Source of the DNA: the human T2T-CHM13v2.0 reference genome, Homo sapiens
Assembly (NCBI GenBank): GCA_009914755.4
Contig: CP086569.2
Span: 1,664,001-1,728,000 of the forward strand
Direction: 5' to 3'
DNA: 64,000 nt
Both the position numbers and the translations under genes were made by a program. Of the stretch, positions 1 to 58,764 are shown piece by piece; within the stretch, counting starts at the first letter, position 1, and each line of letters begins with the position of its first letter. The notes under the pieces were generated by a model that made no database searches, had not been told where the DNA came from, and worked only from the letters and a program-made list of their open reading frames with translations.

Positions 1-599
<599 letters not shown>

Positions 600-4769: not shown

Positions 4770-5075
4770 GTTCATGTTGAATCCTTACTCTTGAGAAATG
4801 GCGTTAGGAGGTGGTGCTTTTGGGAGATGATAAGGTATTCATGTGGATTCCTCACTCTTGAGTGATGGCCTTCGGAGGTGATGGTTTTGGGAAATGATAA
4901 GGTCGTAAGGTTGGAGCCTCATTAAGGGCATTCCTGTCCTACAAAAGGGACCCCAGAGAGCTCCATCGTCCGTTCCACCATGTGAGGATACAGACAGAAA
5001 GTGCTGTCTATGAACCAGGAAGTGGGGTTTCCACCAGATACTGAATCTCACGTCTTGATCCTGAACACTCAACCT
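4770..5075 (+). mobile_element. ERVL-MaLR-type LTR fragment (MST/MLT-like)
   Basis: Motifs gggaccccagagagctcc...ccaccatgtgaggatacagacagaaag...tgaaccaggaagtgggg...ccagatactgaatctc...cctccagaactgtgaga. These resemble the MaLR LTR 3' half as I remember it. The family name is from memory, not from a search. Confidence 0.55.
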
Positions 5076-5179
5076 CCAGAACTGTGAGATGTAAAGGTCA
5101 ACTGCTTATCCTGAAACATGAAGCTTCCAGCCCCAGAAAAAGCGGGGAAAATGTTTATGGACAGAATAGTGACGTCCCA

Positions 5180-5762
<583 letters not shown>

Positions 5763-11384: not shown

Positions 11385-14300
11385 TAAAAAGAACAACAGT
11401 AATAATATGATACTACCACTGCATGAGAGCAGTAATAACAACAACAGTAATACAATACCACCGCCGTGTGAGAGCAGTAATAACTACAACAGTAATACGA
11501 TACCACCGCTGCATGAGAGCAGTCATAATCACAACAGTAATATGATACTACCGCCGCATGAGAGCAACAACAGTAATATGATACTACTGCCGCATGAGAG
11601 CAGTAATAACAACAGTAATATGATACTACCACTACATGAGAGCAGTCATAATCACAACAGTAACATGACACCACCGCCGCATCAGAGCAGTAATAACAAC
11701 AACAGTAATATGATACTACCGCCGCATGAGAGCAGTAATAACAACACTAATATGATACTACCACTACATGAGAGCAGTCATAATCACAACAGTAACATGA
11801 CACCACCGCCGCATGAGCAGTAATAACAACAACAGTAATATGATACTACCGCCGCATGAGAGCAGTAATCACAACAGTAATATGATACTACCGCTGCATG
11901 AGAGCAGTAATAACAGTAATATGATACTACCGCCGCATGAGAGCAGTAATAACAGTAATATGATACTACCGCCGCATGAGAGCAGTAATAACAACAGTAA
12001 TATGATACTACCGCCGCATGAGAGCAGTCATAATCACAACAGTAATATGATACTACCGCCGCATGGGAGCAGTAATAACAACAACAGTAATATGATACTA
12101 CCGCCGCATGAGAGCAGTAATAACAACAGTAATATGATACTACCGCTGCATGAGAGCAGTAATAACAGTAATATGATACTACCGCCGCATGAGAGCAGTA
12201 ATAACAACAGTAATATGATACTACCACTACATGAGAGCAGTCATAATCACAACAGTAATATGATACTACCACTACATGAGAGCAGTCATAATCACAACAG
12301 TAATATGATACTACCACTACATGAGAGCAGTCATAATCACAACAGTAATATGATACTACCGCCGCATGGGAGCAGTAATCACAACAGTAATATGATACTA
12401 CCGTTGCATGAGAGCAGTAATAACAACAACAGTAATATGATACTACCGCCACATGAGAGCAGTAATCACAACAGTAATATGATACTACCGCCGCATGAGA
12501 GCAGTCATAATCACAACAGTAATATGATACTACCGCCACATGAGAGCAGTAATAACAACAGTAATATGATACTACCACTACATGAGAGCAGTCATAATCA
12601 CAACAGTAATATGATACTACCACTACATGAGAGCAGTCATAATCACAACAGTAATATGATACTACCACTACATGAGAGCAGTCATAATCACAACAGTAAT
12701 ATGATACTACCGCTGCATGAGAGCAGTAATAACAACAGTAATATGATACTACCGCCGCATGAGAGCAACAACAGTAATATGATACTACTGCCGCATGAGA
12801 GCAGTAATAACAACAGTAATATGATACTACCGCCGCATGAGAGCAGTAATAACAACAGTAATATGATACTACCACTACATGAGAGCAGTCATAATCACAA
12901 CAGTAATATGATACTACCGCCGCATGAGAGCAGTAATCACAACAGTAATATGATACTACCGCTGCATGAGAGCAGTAATAACAGTAATATGATACTACCG
13001 CCACATGAGAGCAGTAATAACAGTAATATGATACTACCGCCGCATGAGAGCAGTAATAACAACAGTAATATGATACTACCGCCGCATGAGAGCAGTCATA
13101 ATCACAACAGTAATATGATACTACCACTACATGAGAGCAGTCATAATCACAACAGTAATATGATACTACCGCTGCATGAGAGCAGTAATAACAACAGTAA
13201 TATGATACTACCGCCGCATGAGAGCAGTAATAACAGTAATATGATACTACCGCCGCATGAGAGCAGTCATAACAGTAATATGATACTACCGCCGCATGAG
13301 AGCAGTAATAACAACAGTAATATGATACTACCGCTGCATGAGAGCAGTAATAACAACAGTAATATGATACTACCACTACATGAGAGCAGTCATAATCACA
13401 ACAGTAATATGATACTACCGCCGCATGGGAGCAGTAATCACAACAGTAATATGATACTACCGTTGCATGAGAGCAGTAATAACAACAACAGTAATATGAT
13501 ACTACCGCCGCATGAGAGCAGTCATAATCACAACAGTAATATGATACTACCGCCGCATGAGAGCAGTCATAATCACAACAGTAATATGATACTACCGCCA
13601 CATGAGAGCAGTAATAACAACAGTAATATGATACTACCACTACATGAGAGCAGTCATAATCACAACAGTAATATGATACTACCACTACATGAGAGCAGTC
13701 ATAATCACAACAGTAATATGATACTACCACTACATGAGAGCAGTCATAATCACAACAGTAATATGATACTACCGCTGCATGAGAGCAGTAATAACAACAG
13801 TAATATGATACTACCGCCACATGAGAGCAGTAATAATCACAACAGTAATATGATACTACCGCCGCATGAGAGCAGTAATCACAACAGTAATATGATACTA
13901 CCGCCACATGAGAGCAGTAATAACAGTAATATGATACTACCGCCACATGAGAGCAGTAATCACAACAGTAATATGATACTACCACTACATGAGAGCAGTC
14001 ATAATCACAACAGTAATATGATACTACCGCTGCATGAGAGCAGTAATAACAACAGTAATATGATACTACCGCCACATGAGAGCAGTAATAATCACAACAG
14101 TAATATGATACTACCACTACATGAGAGCAGTCATAATCACAACAGTAATATGATACTACCGCCACATGAGAGCAGTAATAACAACAGTAATATGATACTA
14201 CCGCCGCATGAGAGCAGTAATAACAGTAATATGATACTACCGCCACATGAGAGCAGTAATAACAGTAATATGATACTACCGCCACATGAGAGCAGTAATC

Positions 14301-15289
14301 ACAACAGTAATATGATACTACCACTACATGAGAGCAGTCATAATCACAACAGTAATATGATACTACCGCCGCATGAGCAGTAATAACAGTAATATGATAC
14401 TACCGCCGCATGAGAGCAGTAATAACAACAGTAATATGATACTACCACTACATGAGAGCAGTAATAATCACAACAGTAACATGACACCACCGCCACATGA
14501 GAGCAGTAATAACAACAGCAATATACTACCGCCGCATGAGAGCAGTAATAACAACAGTAGTATGATACTACCACTACATGAGAGCAGTCATAATCACAAC
14601 AGTAATATGATACTACCGCCGCATGAGAGCAGTAATAACAGTAATATGATACTACCGCCGCATGAGAGCAGTAATAACAGTAATATGATACTACCGCCGC
14701 ATGAGAGCAGTAATAACAAGAGTAATATGATACCACCACCGCATGAGAGCAGTAATAACAACAGTAATATGATACCACCGCCACATGAGAGCAGTAATAA
14801 CAACAGTAATATGATACTACCACTACATGAGAGCAGTCATAATCACAACAGTAATATGATACTACCACTACATGAGAGCAGTCATAATCACAACAGTAAT
14901 ATGATACTACCGCCGCATGAGAGCAGTAATAACAGTAATATGATACTACCGCCACATGAGAGCAGTCATAATCACAACAGTAATATGATACTACCGCCGC
15001 ATGAGAGCAGTAATCACAACAGTAATATGATACTACCGCCACATGAGAGCAGTCATAATCACAACAGTAATATGATACTACCACTACATGAGAGCAGTCA
15101 TAATCACAACAGTAATATGATACTACCACTACATGAGAGCAGTAATAACAACAGTAATATGATACTACCGCCACATGAGAGCAGTCATAATCACAACAGT
15201 AATATGATACTACCGCTGCATGAGAGCAGTAATAACAAGAGTAATATGATACCACCGCCACATGAGAGCAGTAATAACAACAGTAATAT

Positions 15290-15312
<23 letters not shown>
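11385..15312. repeat. Large minisatellite/VNTR (A): about 90 tandem copies of a 39/42/45/48-bp unit (~3.9 kb)
   Basis: Units such as cagtaataacaacagtaatatgatactaccgccgcatgagag (42 bp), cagtcataatcacaacagtaatatgatactaccactacatgagag (45 bp) and cagtaataacagtaatatgatactaccgccgcatgagag (39 bp). Every unit length is a multiple of 3 and one frame per strand lacks stops. This explains the ORF-track ORFs 11813..14383 (+, 856 aa, SSNNNSNMILPPHE repeats) and 11784..14324 (-, 846 aa, SHAAVVSYYCCYYC repeats), plus 14373..15425 / 14344..15300. Confidence 0.97.
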
Positions 15313-16074
<762 letters not shown>

Positions 16075-16239: not shown

Positions 16240-16790
16240 TCTCACAGACTAGGTGGCTTAACCAACAGACATTGATTCTCCCACAGTCCTGGAGGCTGCA
16301 AGTCTGAGATCCAGGTGTGGGCAGGGCTGGTTCCTCCTGAGGCCTCTCTCCTTGGCTTGGAGACACTGTCTTCTCCCTGCAGCCTCACAGGGTCATCCCT
16401 CTGTGTGTGTCTGTGTCCTCACCTCCTCTTCTTATGAGATGCCTTAGTCCATTTCAGGCTGCTAACACAGAATACCATAGACTGGGTGACTTATAAACAA
16501 CAGACATTGATTCTCCCACAGTCCTGGAGGCTGGAAGTCTGAGATCCAGGTATGGGCAGGGCTGGTTCCTCCTGAGGCCTCTCTCCTGGGCTTGTAGACG
16601 CCGTCTTCTCCCTGTGCCCTCACAGGGTCATCCCTCTGTGTGTGTCTGTGTCCTCACCTCTTCTTCTTATGAGATGCCTTAGTCCATTTCAGGCTGCTAA
16701 CACAGAATACCATAGACTGGGTGACTTATGAGCAACAGACATTGATTCTCCCACAGTCAAGACAGGGGAAGACCATGGAGAGGAGGGTCA
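16240..16790 (+). mobile_element. Interspersed repeat (same family as 50480-51370 and 54250-55700; probably LTR/MaLR-related, name uncertain), internally duplicated ~2.2x with a ~240-bp period
   Basis: The block ...gggtgacttataaacaacagacattgattctcccacagtcctggaggctg.aagtctgagatccaggt.tgggcagggctggttcctcctgaggcctctctcc...cacagggtcatccctctgtgtgtgtctgtgtcctcacct...tcttatgagatgccttagtccatttcaggctgctaacacagaataccatagactgggtgactta occurs twice, at 16250-16490 and 16490-16730. Confidence 0.7.
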
Positions 16791-18122: not shown

Positions 18123-18707
18123 GTGCAATACTCACCAGATGATGTTCCAAGTTGTTTAGCTGCAATAGTGACTGGCTTAATGCATTAGTTTGCCCCCCTT
18201 TTTCCTTATTATTTTGTTATCCCAAAAAACCTTTCCTACAGGGGCTAAGAATATATGGGAAATTCCAATATACCATTTCTGGGGAAACCCAAGCAAATAA
18301 CAGACAGGGGTTATGGCCACACCGTGCTTTCTGGATATTTGTACTATTACGAGTGGAAATGTGTCCTATGCCAAATTCATAGATTGACGTCCTAAATCTC
18401 AGTTCCTCAGACTGTGATCTTGTTTGGAAGTACATCATTGCAGATGTAATTAATTAGTTCTGTTAGGATGAGGTCAGGCTGGAGTCAAATGGGCCCCTAA
18501 TCTAATATAAATGTTGTCTTCATCCATTTGAGCATCTATCACGAGATGTCATAAATTGGGTTGGTTTGAAATAACGGGAGTTTATCACTCACAGCTCTGT
18601 TGGCTAGAATTTCAAGATCAAAGGGTGGAAGATTCAGTGTGTGGGAACGGCTTCCTGGTTCACAGACGGTGCCTTCTCACTATGCCCTTACATGGTACCG
18701 CCTCCGC

Positions 18708-21700
18708 CAACAGGGAACAGATTTCAGCATGAGACCCAAACACCTCCACCCAGTCCCACCTCCATCACTGGGAACCAGATTTCAGCATGAGACCCAAACC
18801 CCTCACCCAGCCCCACCTCCATCACTGGGAACAAGATTTCAGCATGAGACCAAACACCCTCACACAGACTCACCTCCAACAATGGGGACCAGATTTCAGC
18901 ACGAGACCAAACACCCTCACCGAGCCCCACCTCCAACACTAGGGACCAGATTTCAACATGAGAAACAAACACCTCCATCCAGCCTCACCACTAATACGGG
19001 GGACCAGATTTCAGCATGAGACCCAAACACCCTCACCCAGCCCCACCTCCCACACTGGGAACAAGATTCCAGCATGAGACCAAACACCCTCACACAGACT
19101 CACCTCCAACAATGGGGACCAGATTTCAGCAATAGACCCAAACACCCTCACCCAGCCCCACCTCCAAACTGGGGACCAGATTTCAGCATGAGACCCAAAC
19201 ACACTCACGCAGCCCCAACTCCAACACTGGGGACCAGATTTCAGCATGAGACACACACACCTCCACCCGGCCTCACCCCCAACACTGGAGACCAGATTTC
19301 AGCATGAGACCCAAACACCCTCATCCAGACCCACCTCCAACAATGGGGACCAGATTACAGCATGAGACCCAAACACTTCCACCCAGCCCCACCGCCAACA
19401 CTGGGGACCAGATTTCAGCAGGAGACCCAAACACCCTCATCCAGACCCAACTCCAACATTGGTGACCAGATTTCAGCATCAGAACCAAACACCCTCACCC
19501 AGCCCCACCCCTAACACTGGGGACAAGATTTCAGCATGAGACCCAAACAACTCTATCCAGCCTCACCACCAACACTGGGGACCAGATTTCAGCATGACGC
19601 CTAAACACCCTCACACAGACCCACCTCCAACACTGGAGACAGATTTCAGCATGACATGCAAACATCTCGACCCAGCCCCACCTCCAACACTGGGAACCAG
19701 ATTTCAGAATGAGACCCAAACACTTCCACCCAGCCCCACCTCCAACATTGGGGAGCAGATTTCAGAATGAGACCCAAACACCTCCACCTGGCCTCACCTC
19801 CAACTTCAGGGACCAGATTTCAGCATAAGACACAAACACCTCCACCCAGACCCACATCAAACACTGGGAACAAGATATCAGCATGAGACCCAAACACGTC
19901 CACCCAGCCCCACCTCCAACAATGGGGACCAGATTTAAGCATGAGGCGAAAACACCCTCACCCAGACCCACCTCCAACACTGGGGACCAGATTTCCGCAT
20001 GGCACCCAAACACGCTCATCCAGACCCACCTCCAACATCGGTGAAAAGATTTCAGCATGAGACCCAAACACGCTCACCCAGCCCCACCCCTAACACTGGG
20101 AACAAGATATCAGCATGAGACCCAAACACCCTCACCCAGCCCCACCTCCAACAATGGGGACCAGATTTCAGCATGAGACCCAAACACCTCCACCTGGCCT
20201 CATCCCCAACACTGGGGACCAGATTTCAACATGAGACGCAAACACCTCCACCTGGCCTCACCTCCAACTTCAGGGACCAGATTACAGCATGAGACCCAAA
20301 CACCTCCACCCAGACCTACCTACAACACTGGGAAACAGATTTCTGCCTGAGACCCAGACACCTCCATCCAGCTTCACCACCAGCACTGGGGACCAGATTT
20401 CAGCATGAGACCCAAACACCCTCAGCCAGCCCCACCTCCAACACTGCGGACGAGATTTCAGCATGAGACCCAAACATCCTCACCCAGCCCCACCCCTAAC
20501 ACTTGGGACCAGATTTCAGCATGAGACCCAAACACCCTCACCCAGCACCCCCTCCAACACTGGGGATGAGATTTCAGCATGAGACCCAAACACCCTCACA
20601 GAGCCCCACCCCTAACGCTGGGGACCAGTTTTCAGCATGAGACCCAAACACCTCCATCCAGCCTCACCACCAACACTGGGGACCAGATTTCAGCATGAGG
20701 CCCAAATACCCTCACCCAGACCCACCTCCAACACTGGGGACGAGATTTCAGCATGAGGCCCAAACACCCTCACGCAGACCCACCTCCAAAACTGGGGACC
20801 AGATTTCAGCATGAGACCCAAACACCTCCACCCAGCCTCAACACCAATACTGGAGACCAGATTTCAACATGAGACCCAAACACCTCCACCCGGCCTCAAC
20901 ACCAATACTGGAGACCAGATTTCAACATGAGACCCAAACACCTCCACCCAGCCTCACATCCAATACTGGAGACCAGATTTCAGCATGAAGCCCAAACACC
21001 CTCACCCAGCCCCATCTCCAATAATGGGTACCGGATTTCATCATGAGACCCAAACGCTTCAACCCAGCCCCAACTGCAACACTGGGGAACAGATTTCAGC
21101 ATGAGACACAAACACCCTCCCCAAGACCCACCTCAAACACTGGGGACCAGATTTCAGCATGAGACCCAAACACCTTCACCCAGCACCACCCCTAACACTG
21201 GGGACCAGATTTCAGCATGAGACCCAAACACCTTCACCCAGCACCACCCCTAACACTGGGGGCCAGATTTCAGCATGAGACCCAAACACCCTCACCCAGC
21301 CCCACCTCCAACACTGGGGACAAGATTTCAGCATGAGACCCAAACACCCTCACCCAGCCCCACCCCTAACACTTGGGGACCAGATTTCAGCATGAGACCC
21401 AAACACCTCCATCCAGCCTCACCTCACCTGGGACCAGATTTCAGCATGAGACCCGAACACCTCCATCCAGCTTCACCACCAACACTGGGGACCAGATTTC
21501 AGCATGAGGCCCAAATACCCTCACCCAGACCCACCTCCAACACTGGGGACCGGATTTCAGCATGAGACCCAAACACCTCCATCCAGCCTCACCACCAACA
21601 CTGGGGACCAGATTTTAGCATGAGACCCAAACACCCTCACCCAGCCCCACCCCTAACACTTGGGACCAGATTTCAGCATGAGACCCGAACACCCTCACCC

Positions 21701-22325
21701 AGCACCCCCTCCAACATTGGTGACCAGATTTCAGCATGAGACCCAAACACCCGCACCCAGCCCCACCCCTAACACTGGGGACCAGAATTCAGCATGAGAC
21801 CCAAACACCTCCATCCAGACTCACCTCCAACTTTGGGGACCAGATTTCATCATGAGATCCAAACACCTCCATCCGACTGGCCTCACCTCCAACAGTTGGG
21901 GCCAGATTTCAGCATGAGACCCAAACACCTCCATCCGGCCGGCCTCACCTCCAACATTGGGGACCAGATTTCAGCGTGAGACCCAGACACCCTCACCCAG
22001 CACCCCCCCAACACTGGGGACCAGATTTCAGCATGAGAGCGAAACACCTCCATCCAGCCTCACCACCAATACTGGGGACCAGATTTCTGCATGAGACTCA
22101 AACACCTCCATGCAGCCGGCTTCACCTCCAACACTGGGGCGAGATTTCAGCATGATACCCAAACACTTCCACCTGGCCTCACCTCCAACACTGGGGCGAG
22201 ATTTCAGCATGATACCCAAACACTTCCACCTGGCCTCACCTGTAACAGTGGAGACCAGATTTCAGCATGATTCCCAAACACCTCCACCTGGCCTCACCTC
22301 CAACATCAGGGATCAGATTTCAGCA
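18708..22325. repeat. Large minisatellite/VNTR (B): about 62 tandem copies of a ~57-bp unit (~3.6 kb)
   Basis: Unit ggggaccagatttcagcatgagacccaaacaccctcacccagccccacctccaacact with variants (cctccatccagcctcaccaccaacact etc.). The ORF-track peptides show a 19-aa periodicity (GTRFQHETKHPH..PPP.L). The array terminates in ...cctcacctccaacatcagggatcagatttcagcatgagatttggagaagacaaacatgc. Confidence 0.95.
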
Positions 22326-22479
22326 TGAGATTTGGAGAAGACAAACATGCCGACTATATCAGCCACCGCGCCTGGCCACAGATATTTAGTCCTTAGCAAC
22401 TGGTGTCCTTATGAAAAGGGGGAAATGGGATGTGAATGGCGAGAAGCTATGGGAACTTTGCAGTGATGCTGCCCCAAGT

Positions 22480-29299: not shown

Positions 29300-29411
29300 A
29301 AGAAAAGGAAACAATAATCATGAAGGAAGGAAAGAAAGAAAGAAAAAAGAAAGAAGGAAGGAAGGAAAAGGAAGGAAGGAAGGGAAGGGAAGGAAGGGAA
29401 AGGAAAGGAAG

Positions 29412-29469
<58 letters not shown>

Positions 29470-29735
29470 GGAAGGAAGGAAGGGAAGGGAAAGGAAAGGA
29501 AAGGAAGGGAAGAAAGAAAGAAAGAGAAAGAGAGAAAGAAAGAAAAAGAAAGAAAAGAAGGAAGGAAAGAAAGAAAGAAAAGAAGGAAGGAAAGAAAGAG
29601 AGAAAGAGAGATGGACGGAAGGGAAGGAAAGGGAAGGGAAGGAAAGGGAGAGAGAGAGAAAAAAAAAGAAAGAAAGGAAGGAAGGAAGGGGAAAGGAAAG
29701 GAAAAGAGAAAAAGAAAAGAAAGAAATAGGAGAAA
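29300..29735. repeat. Long polypurine (GAAA)n/(GGAA)n/(GA)n microsatellite composite (~435 bp)
   Basis: gaaagaaagaaagaaagaaagaaag..., ggaaggaaggaagggaaggg. Source of the K/E/R-rich ORFs 29277..29729 and 29320..29748 (+) and of the S/F/L-rich ORFs on the minus strand. Confidence 0.95.
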
Positions 29736-31935: not shown

Positions 31936-32775
31936 CCACCAGGTTCCTTCCATGGCATGTGGGCATTATGGGAGCTACAGTTCAAGATGAGATTTGGGTG
32001 GGGACACAGCCAAACCCTGTCACATGGTTGGACCTTTCCTCTGCACGTCTGTATTCCAACATTAGAAAAATGTGCCCAGGATAACCACTGGTTCCTCCCA
32101 TGGCATGTGGGCATTATGGGAGCTACAGTTCAAGATGAGATTTGGGTGGGGACACAGCCAAACCCTATCACATGGTTGGACTTTTCCTCTGCACGTCTGT
32201 ATTTGAACATTAGAGAAATGTGCCCAGGATAACCACTGGTTCCACCCATGGCATGTGGGCATTATGGGAGCTACAGTTCAAGATGAGATTTGGGTGGGGA
32301 CACAGCCAAACCCTGTCACATGGTTGGACCTTTCCTCTGCACGTCTGTATTCCAACATTAGAAAAATGTGCCCAGGATAACCACTGGTTCCTCCCATGGC
32401 ATGTGGGCATTATGGGAGCTACAGTTCAAGATGAGATTTGGGTGGGGACACAGCCAAACCCTATCACATGGTTGGACCTTTCCTCTGCACGTCTGTATTT
32501 GAACATTAGAGAAATGTGCCCAGGATAATCACTGGTTCCACCCATGGCATGTGGGCATTATGGGAGCTACAGTTCAAGATGAGATTTGGGTGGGAACACA
32601 GCCAAACCCTATCACATGGTTGGACCTTTCCTCTGCGCGTCTGTATTCCAACATTAGAAAAATGTGCCCAGGATAATCACTGGTTCCTCCCATGGCATGT
32701 GGGCATTATGGGAGCTACAGTTCAAGATGAGATTTGGGTGGGGACACAGCCAAACCCTATGGTCCCAAAATGATG
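31935..32775 (-). repeat. 148-bp tandem repeat x ~5.7 formed from the 5' terminus of the THE1-like LTR plus ~80 bp of adjoining sequence
   Basis: Unit ccatggcatgtgggcattatgggagctacagttcaagatgagatttgggtggggacacagccaaaccct.tcacatggttggacctttcctctgcacgtctgtatt..aacattaga.aaatgtgcccaggataa.cactggttcc.c. The ORF track shows the same 61-102-aa peptides (MPTCHGRNQWLSWAHFSNVGIQTCRGKVQPCDRVWLCPHPNLILNCSSHNAHMPW...) repeated at 31929, 32062, 32210, etc. Confidence 0.9.
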
Positions 32776-34501: not shown

Positions 34502-34939
34502 TGAGTCTGTGCCGCAAGGAGGCTGCTTCTACCTGCCCTCCAGGGCTGATCCTTCAGCAATGATTGATTTAGAAAAGCACATGCAACTGAACCCTGTCCA
34601 ATAATATGGGAGAGACCTTCTCCTGTGGGTACAGCTTTGGGGGAAAGTTTTCTCCTTCCTAAGAAGACTAAAAGATGGATTCTGTTTTTTCTCTCCACGT
34701 CGTGGCATGTGGATAAGTTGACTGTGAGATTCTGGCTTACCCAATCTGATTTCCTAACACAGGGATTCCTGGAGACGATCAACTTTGGACATTCTCTGGT
34801 TTGGATATAGTTTGTCTGGTCCCACCAAGTCTCATGTGGAAATCTGATCTCCAGTGTTGAAGGCGGGGCCTGGCGGGAGGTGTTTGGGTCATGGGGTTAA
34901 ATCCCTCATGAATGGCATGGTGCCATTCTCAAGACAGTG

Positions 34940-35395
34940 AGTGGGTTCTTACTTAATTTATTTTATTTTTATTTTTTATTACACTTTAAGTTCTGGGGAT
35001 ACATGTGCAGAACGTGCAGGTTTGTTACATAGGTATGCATGTGCCATGGTGGTTTGCTGCACCCATCAACCCATCATCTACATTAGGTATTTCTCCTAAT
35101 GCTCCCCCTCCCCTAGCCCCTCACCCCCTGACAGGCCCCCAGTGTGTGATGTTCCCCTCCCTGTGTCCATGTGTTCTCATTGTTCAACTCCCACTTATGA
35201 GTGAGAATGTGCGGTGTTTGGTTTTCTGTTCCTGTGTTAGTTTACTGAGAATGATGGTTTGCAGCTTCATCTATGTCTCTGCAAAGGACATGGCCTCATC
35301 CTTTTTTATGGCTGCATAGCATTCCATTGTGTCTATGTGCCACGTTTTCTTTATCCGGTCTATCATTGATGGGCATTTCTTACTTTTAGTTCCCA
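34940..35395 (-). mobile_element. LINE-1 3' end (ORF2 C-terminus + 3' UTR), antisense
   Basis: cactttaagttctggggatacatgtgcagaacgtgcaggtttgttacataggtatgcatgtgccatggtggtttgctgcacccatcaacccatcatctacattaggtatttctcctaatgct...ctcccacttatgagtgagaatgtgcggtgtttggttttctgttcctgtgttagtttactgagaatgatggtttgcagcttcatctatgtctctgcaaaggacatgg...ggctgcatagcattccattgtgtctatgtgccacgttttctttatccggtctatcattgatgggcattt. Confidence 0.92.
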
Positions 35396-48117: not shown

Positions 48118-48400
48118 AGGCCAGGCGCAGTGGTTCACGCCTGTTATCCCAGCACTTTAGGAGGCTGAGGTGGGCGGATTACCTGAGGTTGGGAGTTCAA
48201 GACCAGCCTGGCCAACATGGTGAAACCCCGTCTCTACTAAAAATACAAAAATTAGCCAGGTGTGGTGACACACGCCTATAATCCCAGCTACTCAAGAGGC
48301 TGAGGCAGGAGAATTGCTTGAACCTGGGAGGCAGACACTGCAGTGAGCCAAGTTGCACTACTGTACTTCCAGCCTGGGTGACAGAGCAAGACTCTGAGAG
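48118..48400 (+). mobile_element. Alu
   Basis: ggccaggcgcagtggttcacgcctgttatcccagcactttaggaggctgaggtgggcggattacctgaggttgggagttcaagac...ccagcctgggtgacagagcaagactctgagagagag. Confidence 0.9.
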
Positions 48401-48441
48401 AGAGTGAGAGAGAGAAAGAAGGAAAGAAGGAAGGAAGGAAG

Positions 48442-48473
<32 letters not shown>

Positions 48474-48850
48474 AAGAAAGAGATAGAAAGAGAGAGAGAG
48501 AAAGGAAAGAAGGGAAACGAAGAAAGGAAGGAAGGAGGGAAGGGAAGGAAGGAAGGAAGGAAGGAAGGAGAGAAAAAAAGAAAGAAAAAAGAGAAAGAAA
48601 GAAAGAGAGAGAAAGAGAAAGAAAGAAAGAGAAAGAGAGAGAGAAAGAAAGAGAGAGAGAGAAAGGAAAGGGAAACGAAGGAAGGGAGGGAGGGAGGGAA
48701 GGGAAGGAAGGAATGAACGAAGGAAGGAGAGAAAAAAAGAAAAAGAAAGAAAGAAAGGAAGGAAGGAAGGAAGGAAGGAAGGAAGGAAGAAAGCAAGAAA
48801 GGAAGGGAGGAAGGGAAAGAAAAGGAAAGAAAGCAAAGAAAGCAAGAAAG
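48400..48850. repeat. Long polypurine (GA)n/(GAAA)n/(GGAA)n composite (~450 bp)
   Basis: gagagagtgagagagagaaagaaggaaagaaggaaggaaggaagg... Source of the K/E/R-rich ORF 48404..48871 (+) and of the S/F/L-rich minus-strand ORFs. Confidence 0.95.
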
Positions 48851-49401
48851 AGAGAAAGAAAGAGGTCTTAGGGTACAAGTGCCCGGGTCATTTTTGGTTC
48901 ACTCAACTTCATTTTCAAGAATACCTGAGAATCCATCCGCTTGTCTGAACACATAACGATGTGACTGTGAAGATCAGCTGGAAAATGCAAGAGGAAAACC
49001 AGGAACTTCCCACTGGCAACAAGCTGAGTAATCAACTTGTCAGGCACAGTCCTTGCCCCAAGCAAATGCTTTGAAAATGATGAGTTTTGATCTTGTATTT
49101 GGTTGGGTCCTGTGCTTTCTGCTAGATACAGGAAGTTATGTGCTCCTTGTATTAACAGCAGACCAAGCCTCTTCCTATGTTATCATTGAAACTATTGATC
49201 AAGGACATGAATCTCTCTCTTTGATTATTAGCCCAGGAATGGAGTTAATTTATTTTATGAACATCACATAAAGTAACCAATGCTTTGGGCAGCTTCATTA
49301 GGACTTTTGAAAAGGCTTAGAAGGCAAATTGAATGATTCAAGAGGCAACATAAGAGAAAGGATAATGGTTTGATGATATCTACACCATAATATCTCACTG
49401 A

Positions 49402-49962: not shown

Positions 49963-50446
<484 letters not shown>

Positions 50447-50479
50447 TTAAGTTACTCCAGTTCTAAGTACTTGAGAGCC

Positions 50480-51370
50480 GCTACTGTGTGTCAGCCTTTT
50501 CAGTTTGCTGTAACAAAATATCACATTGCTTATAAACAACAGCCATTTATTGCTCATAGTTCTGCAGGCTGAATATCCAAGATCAAGGCTTGGCAGCTTC
50601 AGAGCCTGGGGAGAACCCACTTCCTGGTTCATAGACGGCACCTTCCCACAGTGTCCTCACATGGTGGAAGACACGAGGGAGCTCTGTGGGGTCTCGCTTC
50701 CTGGTTCATAGACGGCACCTTCCCACAGTGTCCTCACATGGTGGAAGAGACGAGGGAGCTCTGTGGGGTCTCGCTTCCTGGTTCATAGACGGCACCTTCC
50801 CACTGTGTCCTCACATAGTGGAAGAGACGAGGGAGCTCTGTGGGGTCTCGCTTCCTGGTTCATAGACGGCACCTTCCCACAGTGTCCTCACATGGTGGAA
50901 GAGACGAGGGAGCTCTGTGGGGTCTCGCTTCCTGGTTCATAGACGGCACCTTCCCACTGTGTCCTCACATAGTGGAAGAGACGAGGGAGCTCTGTGGGGT
51001 CTCGCTTCCTGGTTCATAGACGGCACCTTCCCACAGTGTCCTCACATGGTGGAAGAGACGAGGGAGCTCTGTGGGGTCTCGCTTCCTGGTTCATAGACGG
51101 CACCTTCCCACTGTGTCCTCACATGGTGGAAGAGACGAGGGAGCTCTGTGGGGTCTCGCTTCCTGGTTCATAGACGGCACCTTCCCACTGTGTCCTCACA
51201 TGGTGGAAGAGACGAGGGAGCTCTGTGGGGTCTCTTTTATAAGGACGCTGATAATCGTGTGCGGATCTGTTGCCTCCAAATCTCACGCTGAAATCTGATT
51301 CCCAATGTTGGAGGTAGGGCTGGCTGGAGGCATGTGGGTCACGGAAGTGGATTCCTCATACACGGCTTGG
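50480..51370 (+). mobile_element. Interspersed repeat (same family as 16240-16790 and 54250-55700) containing an internal 77-bp x 8 tandem expansion
   Basis: 5' part ...gctgtaacaaaatatcacattgcttataaacaacagccatttattgctcatagttctgcaggctgaatatccaagatcaaggcttggcagc.... 3' part tcttttataaggacgctgataatcgtgtgcggatctgttgcctccaaatctcacgctgaaatctgattcccaatgttggaggtagggc.... Confidence 0.7.
50621..51236 (+). repeat. 77-bp tandem repeat x 8 with 154-bp higher-order periodicity
   Basis: ttcctggttcatagacggcaccttcccacagtgtcctcacatggtggaagagacgagggagctctgtggggtctcgc starts at 50621, 50698, 50775, 50852, 50929, 51006, 51083 and 51160. Copies alternate between cacagtg...catggtgg and cactgtg...catagtgg. Confidence 0.92.
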
Positions 51371-51434
51371 AGCCCTCCCCATGGTAATGGATGATTTCTT
51401 TTTTTTTTTTCCGGAGTTTTTTTTTATTTTTTTA

Positions 51435-51850
51435 TGTTTTATTATACTTTAAGTTTTAGGGTACATGTGCACAACGTGCAGGTTACTTACATACGTGTAC
51501 ATGTGCCATGTTGGTGTGCTGCACCCATTAACTCATCATTTACATTAGGTATATCTCCTAATGCTATCCCTCCCCCTTCCCGCCACCCCACAACAGGCCC
51601 TGGTGTGTGATGTTCCCCTTCCTGTGTCCATGTGTTCTCACTGTTCAATTCCCACCTATGAGTGAGAACATGCGGTGTTTGGTTTTTTGTCCTTGCGATA
51701 GTTTGCTGAGAATGATGGTTTCCAGCTTCATCCATGTCCCTACAAAGGACATGAACTCATACTTTTTTATGGCTGCATAGGATTCCATCGTGTATATGTG
51801 CCACATTTTCTTAATCCAGTCTATCATTGTTGGACATTTGGCTACTTGAG
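51435..51850 (-). mobile_element. LINE-1 3' end (antisense)
   Basis: tatactttaagttttagggtacatgtgcacaacgtgcaggttacttacatacgtgtacatgtgccatgttggtgtgctgcacccattaactcatcatttacattaggtatatctcctaatgctatccctccc...ctcccacctatgagtgagaacatgcggtgtttggttttttgtccttgcgatagtttgctgagaatgatggtttccagcttcatccatgtccctacaaaggacatgaactcatac. The ORF-track protein 51645..52037 (-) has ORF2p C-terminal motifs. Confidence 0.92.
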
Positions 51851-51879
51851 ATCGGGTTGCTAAAACGAGCCTGACACCT

Positions 51880-52567
<688 letters not shown>

Positions 52568-57522: not shown

Positions 57523-57960
57523 ACATGGGAGGGAGGGAGGGAGGGAGGGGAGAGAGAGAGAGAGAAAGGAAGGAAGGAAGGAAGGAAGGAAGGAAGGAAG
57601 GAAGGAAGGAAGGAAGGAGGGAGGGAGGGAGGGAGGGGAAAGAGAGAGAGAAAGAACAAATGAACGAAAGAAAGAAAGAAAAGGAAGGAAGGAAGGGAAA
57701 ATCTGCTGTGGGAGAAAGAAAGAAAGAAGAAAGAAAGAGAAAGAAAGGAAAAGGAAAGAAAGAAAATCTGCTGAAGGAGAAAGAGAGAAAAAGAAAGAAA
57801 GAGAAAGAAAGATCTGCTGAAGGAGAAAGAGAGAAAAAGAAAGAAAGAAAAAGGAAGAAAGATCTGCTGAAGGAGAAAGAAAGAGAGAAAAAGAAAGAAA
57901 GAAGAAAAAGAGAGAAAGAAAGAAGAAAGAAAGAGAAAGAAGAAAGTAAAAGAAAGAAAG

Positions 57961-58015
<55 letters not shown>

Positions 58016-58070
58016 AAAGAAAGAAAGAAAAAGAAAGGAAAGAAAGAAAAAAAGGAAAGAAGGAGAAATC
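57522..58070. repeat. Long polypurine (GGGA)n/(GGAA)n/(GAAA)n composite (~550 bp) with embedded ~55-75-bp sub-repeat
   Basis: gagggagggagggagggg..., ggaaggaaggaagg..., gaaagaaagaaagaaag.... The unit atctgctg.aggagaaaga.agagaaaaagaaagaaagaa recurs at ~57703, 57768, 57821, 57868 and 58068. Source of the K/E/R-rich ORF 57492..58076. Confidence 0.93.
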
Positions 58071-58764
58071 TGCTGAGGGATAGGACATAATTACCTGGTG
58101 TTTTCCCAGACAGGGCACTTCCTCATTTCACACAATTGGGGGTCTATTCCCTTTTATCCTTCCCATTTTACGTGTCGTCCTTTTCTCTTGGCTCCCATGA
58201 GATACGCCTCTGGGTTTCAGAACGACTCTGCCCGTGGATGATATGGGAACTCTTATCAGCATTGTCAAACCTCCTGGGTGGAGGGGAGTAGGAGAAACTC
58301 CCATTTCTCTTTGTCCTCTGGGGAACTCACTCCATTTCTCTCCCAGAGACGATGTATCTGATATTAGATTGGCTATTTGGACATTGCTAGTGCAAAATGT
58401 TGACACTTCATTTTTCTCCTAAGTCATTACATCCACAGAGCAGGTCGTGTGTTTGTGTCTTGGAACGCAAGTTCTTAGGGACTTTCAGATTTGTTTTGTC
58501 ACTGAATTCTCTCCGGACGCCGGGCACTAGGCAGGCCCCATGAACATCCTGTTTTAGCAAACGTCTGAAACTCCAGGACTCATAAGTGGATGAATAAAGC
58601 AGTTGAGTTTTACATCTGTGTCTTCTGACGTCTTTCATGAAGTGTTTCCTCAGCCTGACTGTACATCAAATTCACTCCAGATGTACCATAAAAATGCATA
58701 TTCCTGGTTTCTATCTCCGACGACTATAACTCGGTTAGACACCAGGTCTATCGTATGTTTTTTT

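What the first reader, a model, noticed from the sequence alone, without database searches (positions are those of the whole stretch)
50621..51236. 77-bp x 8 tandem expansion inside an interspersed repeat, with 154-bp higher-order structure
The unit ttcctggttcatagacggcaccttcccac(a/t)gtgtcctcacat(g/a)gtggaagagacgagggagctctgtggggtctcgc corresponds to a segment present once in the progenitor element, whose 5' and 3' parts flank the array. Middle copies strictly alternate between two variants, giving a 154-bp period.
Basis: seen in the sequence. Interest (0 to 1): 0.5.

Follow-up and report, generated by a model that had tools for sequence, protein, structure and literature searches.

The report
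Known minisatellite inside an old retroelement
This is a real eight-copy, 77-bp tandem repeat that grew locally out of one old retrotransposon LTR (MLT1A0) in the human X/Y pseudoautosomal region; it is already listed in a published catalogue and is an ordinary transposon-derived minisatellite.

Summary
TRF finds period 77, 8.0 copies, 98% identity and no indels at 50620-51234. In phase 50619 there are exactly eight complete units and only four variable sites.

The array is already catalogued. Ahmed & Liang 2012 (PMC3389668, Suppl. Table 3) list it at hg19 chrX:1974598-1975212 = chrY:1924598-1925212 (PAR1), with the identical consensus unit. They derive it from MLT1A0 consensus positions 159-231, minus strand. 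Their cluster holds only that X/Y pair.

Eight other copies of the family were examined, three in the window and five on metagenome contigs. Seven span the segment and carry it once; the eighth is cut off inside it.

Two corrections are needed:
- **Flank:** only about 18 bp to the right of the array belong to the MLT1A0. Positions 51253-52408 are a nested, younger MaLR LTR that itself carries L1 and Alu insertions. The rest of the MLT1A0 resumes at 52409.
- **154-bp order:** it covers only units 2-6 (A-B-A-B-A). It indicates two-unit duplication steps, not an extended higher-order repeat.

I found no ORF, Rfam match, unusual fold, CpG island, PRDM9 motif or minisatellite core. Low interest.

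The parts
50619..51234 (-). Tandem array of exactly 8 complete 77-bp units (MLT1A0 consensus positions 231..159; the element lies on the minus strand). Unit types in order: A*, A, B, A, B, A, C, C.
   Evidence: TRF; per-unit comparison; catalogue entry (TRDB 169561371, hg19 chrX:1974598-1975212, period 77, 7.99 copies, 98%, MLT1A0, minus strand, 231-159, identical consensus).
50696..51080 (-). Units 2-6, the A-B-A-B-A block. This is the only part with a 154-bp period.
   Evidence: units 2=4=6 and 3=5 are identical; 12 of 420 random orders; the A and B lineages are not contiguous.
50528..50618 (-). Left flank: the 3' part of the same MLT1A0 LTR (element positions above 231). By eye the element reaches back to about 50494.
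   Evidence: BLAST to paralogs crosses the flank/unit boundary without a break; alignment A1.
51235..51252 (-). Right flank: about 18 bp of MLT1A0 continuing after the array (TTTTATAAGGACGCTGAT).
   Evidence: Paralog alignments end at 51244-51253; alignment A1.
51253..52408 (+). Nested insertion that splits the MLT1A0: an MST/THE-like MaLR LTR in + orientation. It is itself interrupted by an antisense L1 3' end (about 51397-51840) and an antisense Alu (about 52063-52370).
   Evidence: Sequence reading; this stretch matches other MaLR-like copies (34815-34924 on +, units of the 58-bp array on -) but not the MLT1A paralogs; 51266-51839 aligns with 34815-35378. Family names are from my memory of the consensus sequences, not from a tool.
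52409..52546 (-). Remainder (5' part) of the interrupted MLT1A0 LTR.
   Evidence: paralog w5500-5120rc positions 115-219 match 51148-51252 and positions 211-317 match 52409-52515. A reconstructed 372-bp element (one unit, insertion removed) aligns to the paralog as a single 303-column HSP.

Best explanation
This is a transposon-derived minisatellite in the human pseudoautosomal region PAR1. The coordinate match places it at hg19 chrX about 1.9746-1.9752 Mb and at the corresponding chrY position.

Proposed history:
1. An old MLT1A0 solo LTR (ERVL-MaLR), lying on the minus strand, originally carried the 77-bp segment once. (Shown: paralogs carry it once.)
2. Much later that segment was duplicated in place. 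The junction is essentially blunt, with at most 1 bp of microhomology, no flanking direct repeat and no truncated last unit. (Junction shown; timing inferred.)
3. Once two copies existed, homology-driven events grew the array to eight units. Candidates are replication slippage, unequal sister-chromatid or X-Y exchange, and gene conversion during repair of meiotic breaks. (Inferred.)
4. Some of these steps moved two units (154 bp) at a time, which produced the interleaved A-B-A-B-A block. (Inferred from unit order.)

Units 7-8 keep the ancestral bases (T30, G43), so the A and B types are derived. The very high male crossover rate of PAR1 plausibly favours such arrays (inference). Nothing suggests the array encodes a protein or RNA, or has any function of its own. 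It is most likely a neutral by-product, and probably variable in copy number (not shown).
For: - **Array is real and clean:**
- **Already catalogued:** same consensus, period, copy number and length in Ahmed & Liang 2012 Suppl. Table 3, as MLT1A0-derived at hg19 chrX:1974598-1975212 / chrY:1924598-1925212 (column headers).
- **Window is the human reference:** a second array (235 bp x 2.2, MLT1B, chrX:1940217-1940732) maps to window 16259-16758 with the same offset to within 20 bp.
- **One locus only:** catalogue cluster 203 holds only the X and Y PAR1 entries.
- **Paralogs:** seven of eight carry the segment once, contiguous with the same flanks, at 74-82% identity. The eighth is truncated.
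- **Recent relative to the element:** units differ from each other by 1.9% on average, against about 20% from paralogs. All three CpGs per unit are intact in every unit.
- **Ancestral states:** read from alignment A1.
- **Multi-unit steps:** the A and B lineages are interleaved. Copying one unit next to its parent cannot produce this (plus reasoning).
- **No coding or structural signal:** 77 is not a multiple of 3 and the longest ORF touching the array is 75 aa. There is no Rfam match in the array. The DNA fold z-score is +0.52. CpG observed/expected is 0.45, with no PRDM9 13-mer and no G-quadruplex motif, and no minisatellite core.
- **Context:** PAR1 has a 17-fold elevated male crossover rate, and minisatellite-like repeats lie at its recombination peaks (PMC4102438). 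About 15% of this window is arrays with periods of 45 bp or more.
Against: - Only one allele, the reference, was available. Copy-number polymorphism, the timing of the expansion and its presence in other primates are not shown.
- The mechanism of the first duplication is unknown. In the catalogue's own terms it falls in the majority class that neither established model explains.
- The paralog sample is small (eight copies) and the stored catalogue file is truncated, so a second expanded copy elsewhere is unlikely but not strictly excluded.
- The link to PAR1 recombination is contextual. No PRDM9 motif lies in or near the array.
Confidence: 0.9

Rival explanations
1. The array is a feature of the transposon family: an internal tandem repeat already present in the source element and spread by retrotransposition, as in LTR12 or the SVA VNTR region.
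For: Such cases exist. The catalogue paper describes LTR12 internal repeats that spread by transposition.
Against: Seven of eight other family copies have a single unit and the eighth is truncated. The catalogue cluster for this repeat holds only the X/Y PAR1 locus. The exact unit junction GGGGTCTCGCTTCCTGGTTCATAG was absent from the viral, metagenome and prokaryote-genome collections. Those collections hold human DNA only as contamination, so this last point is weak.
Confidence: 0.02
2. The array is an assembly artefact: a mis-assembled or mis-counted repeat in the reference sequence.
For: Near-identical 77-bp units over 616 bp are hard to count from short reads.
Against: The array is an exact integer number of units with an ordered pattern of variants and clean junctions to both flanks. 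The same structure is in the hg19 clone-based reference, as recorded in TRDB. 616 bp is within reach of single Sanger reads and clone finishing.
Confidence: 0.02
3. The array has a function. It could be a copy-number-dependent regulatory element, or one of the PAR1 repeats that help recruit the meiotic break machinery, by analogy with the mouse mo-2 minisatellite.
For: It lies in PAR1, where repeats have been proposed to have a recombinogenic role and the mo-2 analogy has been raised (PMC9575207). Minisatellite-like repeats occur at PAR1 recombination peaks (PMC4102438).
Against: The array is only 616 bp. It has no PRDM9 13-mer, no minisatellite core, no CpG island and no special structure. 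By my recollection, not checked here, mo-2 arrays are very much larger. Nothing here distinguishes the array from a neutral by-product.
Confidence: 0.05
4. The array arose elsewhere and was copied into this LTR by segmental duplication or gene conversion, rather than expanding in place.
For: The window does contain old internal duplications. The LTR+L1 composite at 34815-35378 is paralogous to 51266-51839.
Against: Unit 1 runs without a break into the resident left flank and unit 8 into the resident right flank, with the ancestral bases at both boundaries. No second array exists in the window or in the catalogue cluster. The 34.8-kb paralog of the neighbouring composite has no MLT1A0 or array next to it.
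Confidence: 0.02

Closest known systems
TE-derived minisatellites/satellites of the human genome (Ahmed & Liang 2012, PMC3389668)
   Same: It is literally one of their 7,276 entries: TRDB 169561371 and 169738699, cluster 203, MLT1A0 positions 159-231, period 77, 7.99 copies, 98% identity. It shows in-place expansion of an internal TE segment with the TE continuing on both sides.
   Different: Nothing essential differs. With 8 units it is above the typical 2-unit case. It counts as 'multilocus' only because PAR1 is present on both chrX and chrY in hg19. It has neither a truncated terminal unit nor flanking direct repeats, so it belongs to their 'mechanism not accounted for' majority.
Family-borne internal tandem repeats of retroelements (LTR12 internal repeats; the SVA VNTR region)
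   Same: Tandem repeats that lie inside a retroelement and vary in unit number.
   Different: In those families the repeat belongs to the element and travels with it. Here all comparable paralogs have one unit and the array is confined to one genomic copy.
Classical GC-rich hypervariable minisatellites (for example MS32, CEB1, MS1)
   Same: Head-to-tail units tens of bp long, fairly GC-rich (58%), in a subtelomeric, recombination-rich region. Derived variants cluster toward one end, reminiscent of polar mutation.
   Different: It has no Jeffreys core or chi-like motif and no PRDM9 motif. It has only 8 units, and hypervariability was not shown. The neighbouring 58-bp x 62 array (18713-22330) fits this class better, with GGAGGTGGG in 18 of its units.
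Higher-order repeats of alpha satellite
   Same: In part of the array, units two apart are more alike than neighbours, which implies multi-unit duplication steps.
   Different: Only 2.5 periods, defined by two substitutions. It is not a homogenised multi-monomer array, and TRF does not call a 154-bp period.
Mouse PAR mo-2 minisatellite arrays (Acquaviva et al. 2020, as cited in PMC9575207)
   Same: A tandem repeat located in a pseudoautosomal region.
   Different: mo-2 is cited as involved in axis elongation and sister-chromatid separation needed for PAR recombination in male meiosis. By my recollection, not checked here, its arrays are very much larger and bind break-promoting proteins. This array is 616 bp with no evidence of such a role, and there is no sequence relationship.

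Membership tests
Minisatellite / VNTR | Head-to-tail tandem copies of a unit of roughly 10-100 bp | tested here: met
   Period 77, 8.0 copies, 98% identity, no indels.
Minisatellite / VNTR | Copy number varies between individuals | not testable with these tools
   Only the reference allele is available. No human or primate genome collection is offered. Exact-pattern and exact-protein look-ups found no other allele.
Classical core-containing hypervariable minisatellite | Presence of the GGAGGTGGGCAGGARG-type core, a chi-like motif, or the PRDM9 13-mer | tested here: not met
   No hits for GGAGGTGGG, GGGCAGGANG, GCTGGTGG or CCNCCNTNNCCNC within 50619-51234.
TE-derived tandem repeat, expanded in place | The unit is homologous to an internal segment of a transposable element | tested here: met
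   The unit matches single segments in eight dispersed paralogs at 76-86%. The catalogue assigns it to MLT1A0 positions 159-231.
TE-derived tandem repeat, expanded in place | The same TE copy continues on both sides of the array | tested here: met
   The left flank 50528-50618 and right flank 51235-51252 align to paralogs contiguously with the unit. After the nested insertion the element resumes at 52409-52546.
TE-derived tandem repeat, expanded in place | Other copies of the TE carry the segment once | tested here: met
   Seven of eight paralogs have a single unit and one is truncated. Catalogue cluster 203 holds only chrX and chrY PAR1. The sample is small and no whole-genome search was possible.
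MLT1A0 (ERVL-MaLR LTR) | Best match to the MLT1A0 consensus over its length | not testable with these tools
   No Dfam or Repbase library is available. The assignment rests on the published catalogue and on my recollection of the consensus. The reconstructed single-unit element is 372 bp and aligns to a paralog over 303 columns.
Higher-order repeat | Units n apart are consistently more similar than adjacent units across the array | tested here: inconclusive
   This holds for units 2-6 only. Identity is 98.5% at shift 154 against 97.8% at shift 77. TRF gives no 154-bp row. The order is unlikely by chance (12/420) and needs multi-unit steps.
PAR break-promoting minisatellite (mouse mo-2 type) | Located in the pseudoautosomal region | tested here: met
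   Coordinates chrX:1974598-1975212 = chrY:1924598-1925212 in hg19.
PAR break-promoting minisatellite (mouse mo-2 type) | Binding of REC114/MEI4/ANKRD31 and axis remodelling in spermatocytes | not testable with these tools
   This needs cytology or ChIP. The array is only 616 bp, far smaller than I recall mo-2 arrays being (recollection, not checked here).

The most novel reading that the evidence does not exclude
The array, together with the other MaLR-derived arrays that fill about 15% of this PAR1 window, could be more than a by-product. It could be part of a repeat landscape that helps secure the obligatory X-Y crossover, a human counterpart of the mouse mo-2 idea. Alternatively it could be a recent, possibly human-specific, polymorphic expansion whose even-step (154-bp) mutation mode records X-Y exchange.
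Probability: 0.04. Interest if true: 0.5.

Novelty: already known. Interest (0 to 1): 0.1.

Why it matters
It matters little by itself. It is a textbook example of how an old transposon copy can seed a minisatellite, in a region (PAR1) known for extreme male recombination and many tandem repeats. The practical value is modest. The ordered unit variants (A*, A, B, A, B, A, C, C) would make a convenient variant-repeat marker for following X-Y exchange and multi-unit mutation steps in long-read pedigrees. The corrected anatomy, with a nested LTR/L1/Alu splitting the MLT1A0, prevents a wrong 'element' from being used in any follow-up search.

Tried and rejected
- **Junction scans:** exact-pattern scans for the unit-to-unit junction gave 0 hits in viral, metagenome and prokaryote-genome collections. 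These collections contain human DNA only as contamination, so this says little.
- **Family scans:** a degenerate family pattern gave 0 hits in genome contigs and 5 host-derived metagenome contigs. The five served as paralogs.
- **Other alleles:** exact-protein look-ups of two ORFs that run through the array, intended to reach other assemblies of the locus, found nothing on record.
- **Coding reading rejected:** no ORF longer than 75 aa, and the period is not a multiple of 3. The window's long ORFs are Alu, L1 or repeat artefacts.
- **RNA reading rejected:** the only Rfam hits are two Alu-type SRP matches elsewhere.
- **Structure-driven slippage:** a DNA fold of a two-unit stretch is no better than shuffles, z = +0.52.
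- **Sequence motifs:** CpG island, G-quadruplex, PRDM9 motif and minisatellite core are all absent.
- **Other arrays in the catalogue:** I searched the supplement for the window's 45-, 58- and 148-bp arrays and found none. The stored file is cut, and two of these arrays fall below its 95% identity filter.
- **Right flank:** I first wondered whether the 158 bp right of the array were the remaining MLT1A0 positions 158-1. I rejected this because that stretch is a MaLR 5' region in the opposite orientation and does not match the paralogs.

Full report
**1. The observation**

Tandem Repeats Finder reports one array at 50620-51234 with period 77, 8.0 copies, 98% matches, no indels and score 1181.

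Unit 1 also has a private G>C. If the phase is set two bases earlier (50619), the array is exactly eight complete units, 616 bp. Unit 1 begins AC and units 2-8 begin GC.

Only four positions vary in the whole array. Units 2, 4 and 6 are identical, as are 3 and 5, and 7 and 8. The order of types is A*, A, B, A, B, A, C, C. The array is far beyond anything chance would give.

**2. The 154-bp period**

The alternation is real but short. It covers units 2-6, which is 2.5 periods. Self-identity is 98.5% at a shift of 154 and 97.8% at a shift of 77. TRF does not call a 154-bp period.

The order is still informative. Only 12 of the 420 possible orders of four A, two B and two C units contain A-B-A-B-A. 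More importantly, copying one unit next to its parent keeps the descendants of any mutated unit contiguous. Here the A30 lineage (units 1, 2, 4, 6) and the A43 lineage (units 3, 5) are interleaved. At least some steps must therefore have moved two units at once, or else involved conversion. This is inference from the pattern, not an observed event.

**3. What the unit comes from**

BLAST of the flanks and the unit against the window found other copies of the same interspersed repeat at 5467-5282 (minus), 5088-4936 (minus) and 18581-18696 (plus). A degenerate pattern for the family retrieved five contigs of host DNA from metagenome assemblies, L001-L005.

In seven of these eight paralogs the segment occurs once, contiguous with the same left and right flanks, at 74-82% identity. 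The eighth, 18581-18696, is cut off inside the segment. In alignment A1 the paralogs have T at unit position 30 in six of the eight rows, and G at position 43 and AC before the unit in almost all rows. Units 7-8 therefore keep the ancestral state and the A and B types are derived.

**4. It is already catalogued**

The supplementary table of Ahmed & Liang 2012 (PMC3389668), 'A complete list of all 7,276 TE-derived TRs', contains this array. The entries are TRDB 169561371 at hg19 chrX:1974598-1975212 and 169738699 at chrY:1924598-1925212. They list period 77, 7.99 repeats and 98% identity, matched to MLT1A0 on the minus strand at positions 231-159. The consensus is identical to that (column headers).

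The same table lists a 235-bp x 2.2 MLT1B-derived array at chrX:1940217-1940732. This corresponds to the window's array at 16259-16758 with the same offset to within 20 bp. The window is therefore the human reference sequence, approximately hg19 chrX:1,923,979-1,987,978, inside pseudoautosomal region 1. From memory, not tested, this lies between ASMT and DHRSX.

The stored file is truncated and the catalogue applies a 95% identity filter, so the exclusion is strong but not absolute.

**5. Corrected anatomy**

- Homology to the family runs from about 50528 (by eye from about 50494) through the array to about 51252.
- The stretch 51253-52408 is not the same element. It reads as the 5' region of an MST/THE-like MaLR LTR in the opposite orientation. 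That LTR is interrupted by an antisense L1 3' end with its poly-T (about 51397-51840), resumes at about 51846, is interrupted again by an antisense Alu (about 52063-52370), and ends near 52404. These family names come from my recollection of the consensus sequences.
- The MLT1A0 then resumes. Paralog positions 115-219 match 51148-51252 and positions 211-317 match 52409-52515.
- A reconstructed 372-bp element, with one unit and the insertion removed, aligns to the paralog as one 303-column HSP.

Both ends of the repeated segment lie inside the MLT1A0.

**6. How it most likely arose and behaves**

The units differ from one another by 1.9% on average, and several pairs are identical. The element differs from its paralogs by about 20%. 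All three CpGs per unit are intact in all eight units. The expansion is therefore much younger than the LTR insertion. This is inference, and homogenisation by exchange could also keep the units alike.

The first duplication had an essentially blunt junction. The base before the unit and the last base of the unit share only a C, there is no flanking direct repeat, and the last unit is complete. Neither of the two initiation models reviewed by Ahmed & Liang applies, namely slipped-strand mispairing at non-contiguous repeats and exchange between short flanking repeats. The array falls into their unexplained majority.

The G that begins units 2-8 is either an early A>G change in the second unit or a filler base at the first junction. 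Later growth is the usual homology-driven process: slippage, unequal exchange, or conversion during break repair. Some steps were of two units.

The setting fits. PAR1 has a male crossover rate 17-fold above the genome average, and minisatellite-like repeats lie at its recombination peaks (PMC4102438). About 15% of this window consists of arrays with periods of 45 bp or more.

**7. No sign of a function of its own**

- The period is not a multiple of three, and stops occur in every frame about every two units. The longest ORF touching the array is 75 aa.
- Rfam finds only two Alu-type SRP matches elsewhere in the window.
- A two-unit stretch folds no better than shuffled sequence, z = +0.52.
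- GC is 58% but CpG observed/expected is 0.45, so it is not a CpG island. There is no G-quadruplex motif and no PRDM9 13-mer within 50000-52000.
- There is no Jeffreys-type core or chi-like motif.

**8. Comparison with known kinds**

It is a member, and in fact a listed entry, of the TE-derived minisatellites. It differs from family-borne repeats such as those of LTR12 or SVA because the paralogs have one unit. It lacks the core motifs of the classical hypervariable minisatellites, and its variability is untested.

Its 'higher-order' aspect is a trace of two-unit steps, not an alpha-satellite-like higher-order repeat. The mouse mo-2 analogy raised for PAR1 repeats (PMC9575207) cannot be tested here. 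For a 616-bp array with no recognisable motif it is unlikely.

**9. Limits**

No human or primate genome collection was available. Polymorphism, dating and a complete census of MLT1A0 copies could not be done. Scans for the junction and exact-protein look-ups were the only routes to other alleles, and both returned nothing.

**10. Verdict**

The flank assignment is corrected and the higher-order claim is reduced to a few two-unit duplication steps. The feature is real, ordinary and already catalogued. Interest is low.

Noticed in passing
window 18713-22330: A large array of 58 bp x 62 copies at 82% identity, strongly strand-asymmetric (GC skew about -0.4). Its unit is the reverse complement of the same MaLR 5' segment found at 51281-51340. 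It carries the minisatellite-core-like GGAGGTGGG in 18 units. It starts immediately after an MLT1A-like fragment (18581-18696) that is cut off inside the very segment amplified in the 77-bp array.
   Followed up: partly
window 11403-15315: An array of 45 bp x 92 copies (also scored as 87 bp x 46) at 88% identity. Because 45 is a multiple of 3, it creates artefactual ORFs of 846-856 aa on both strands. Its origin was not determined, and it is not in the stored part of the TE-derived catalogue.
   Followed up: no
window 34815-35378 and 51266-51839: Two copies of the same composite, 16.4 kb apart: a MaLR (MST/THE-like) LTR 5' part interrupted at the same position by the same roughly 440-bp antisense L1 3' end. 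They align as one 577-column HSP at 79.9% identity across the LTR/L1 junction. The first copy shows a TTCTTACTT target-site duplication around the L1. This implies either an old duplication of the composite or retrotransposition of an LTR that already carried the L1 piece. Unresolved.
   Followed up: partly
window 31942-32760: An array of 148 bp x 5.5 copies at 96% identity. Its unit reads as the reverse complement of a THE1-like LTR 5' end, so it is another MaLR-derived array. The family name is from memory.
   Followed up: no
window 16259-16758: An array of 235 bp x 2.1 copies at 95% identity, catalogued as MLT1B-derived at hg19 chrX:1940217-1940732. A similar entry at chrX:1236395-1237045 sits in the same cluster.
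   Followed up: partly
window 4936-5467 (minus strand) and 4771-4921: Two MLT1A-like partial copies in tandem about 350 bp apart (5467-5282 and 5088-4936). Next to them is a 67-bp x 2 duplication (4771-4921) in what looks like the continuation of the same element, so this is another locally duplicated MaLR.
   Followed up: no
window 51244-51252 and 52409-52417: The paralog alignment overlaps by about 9 bp on the two sides of the nested LTR insertion (paralog positions 211-219 match both sides). This is longer than the 5-bp target-site duplication I would expect for an ERVL-MaLR insertion. It may be a chance similarity.
   Followed up: no
window 29322-29726, 48397-48863, 57528-58080: Three long, degenerate GAAA/AGAA-type purine-rich microsatellite tracts of 400-550 bp each in one 64-kb window.
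   Followed up: no
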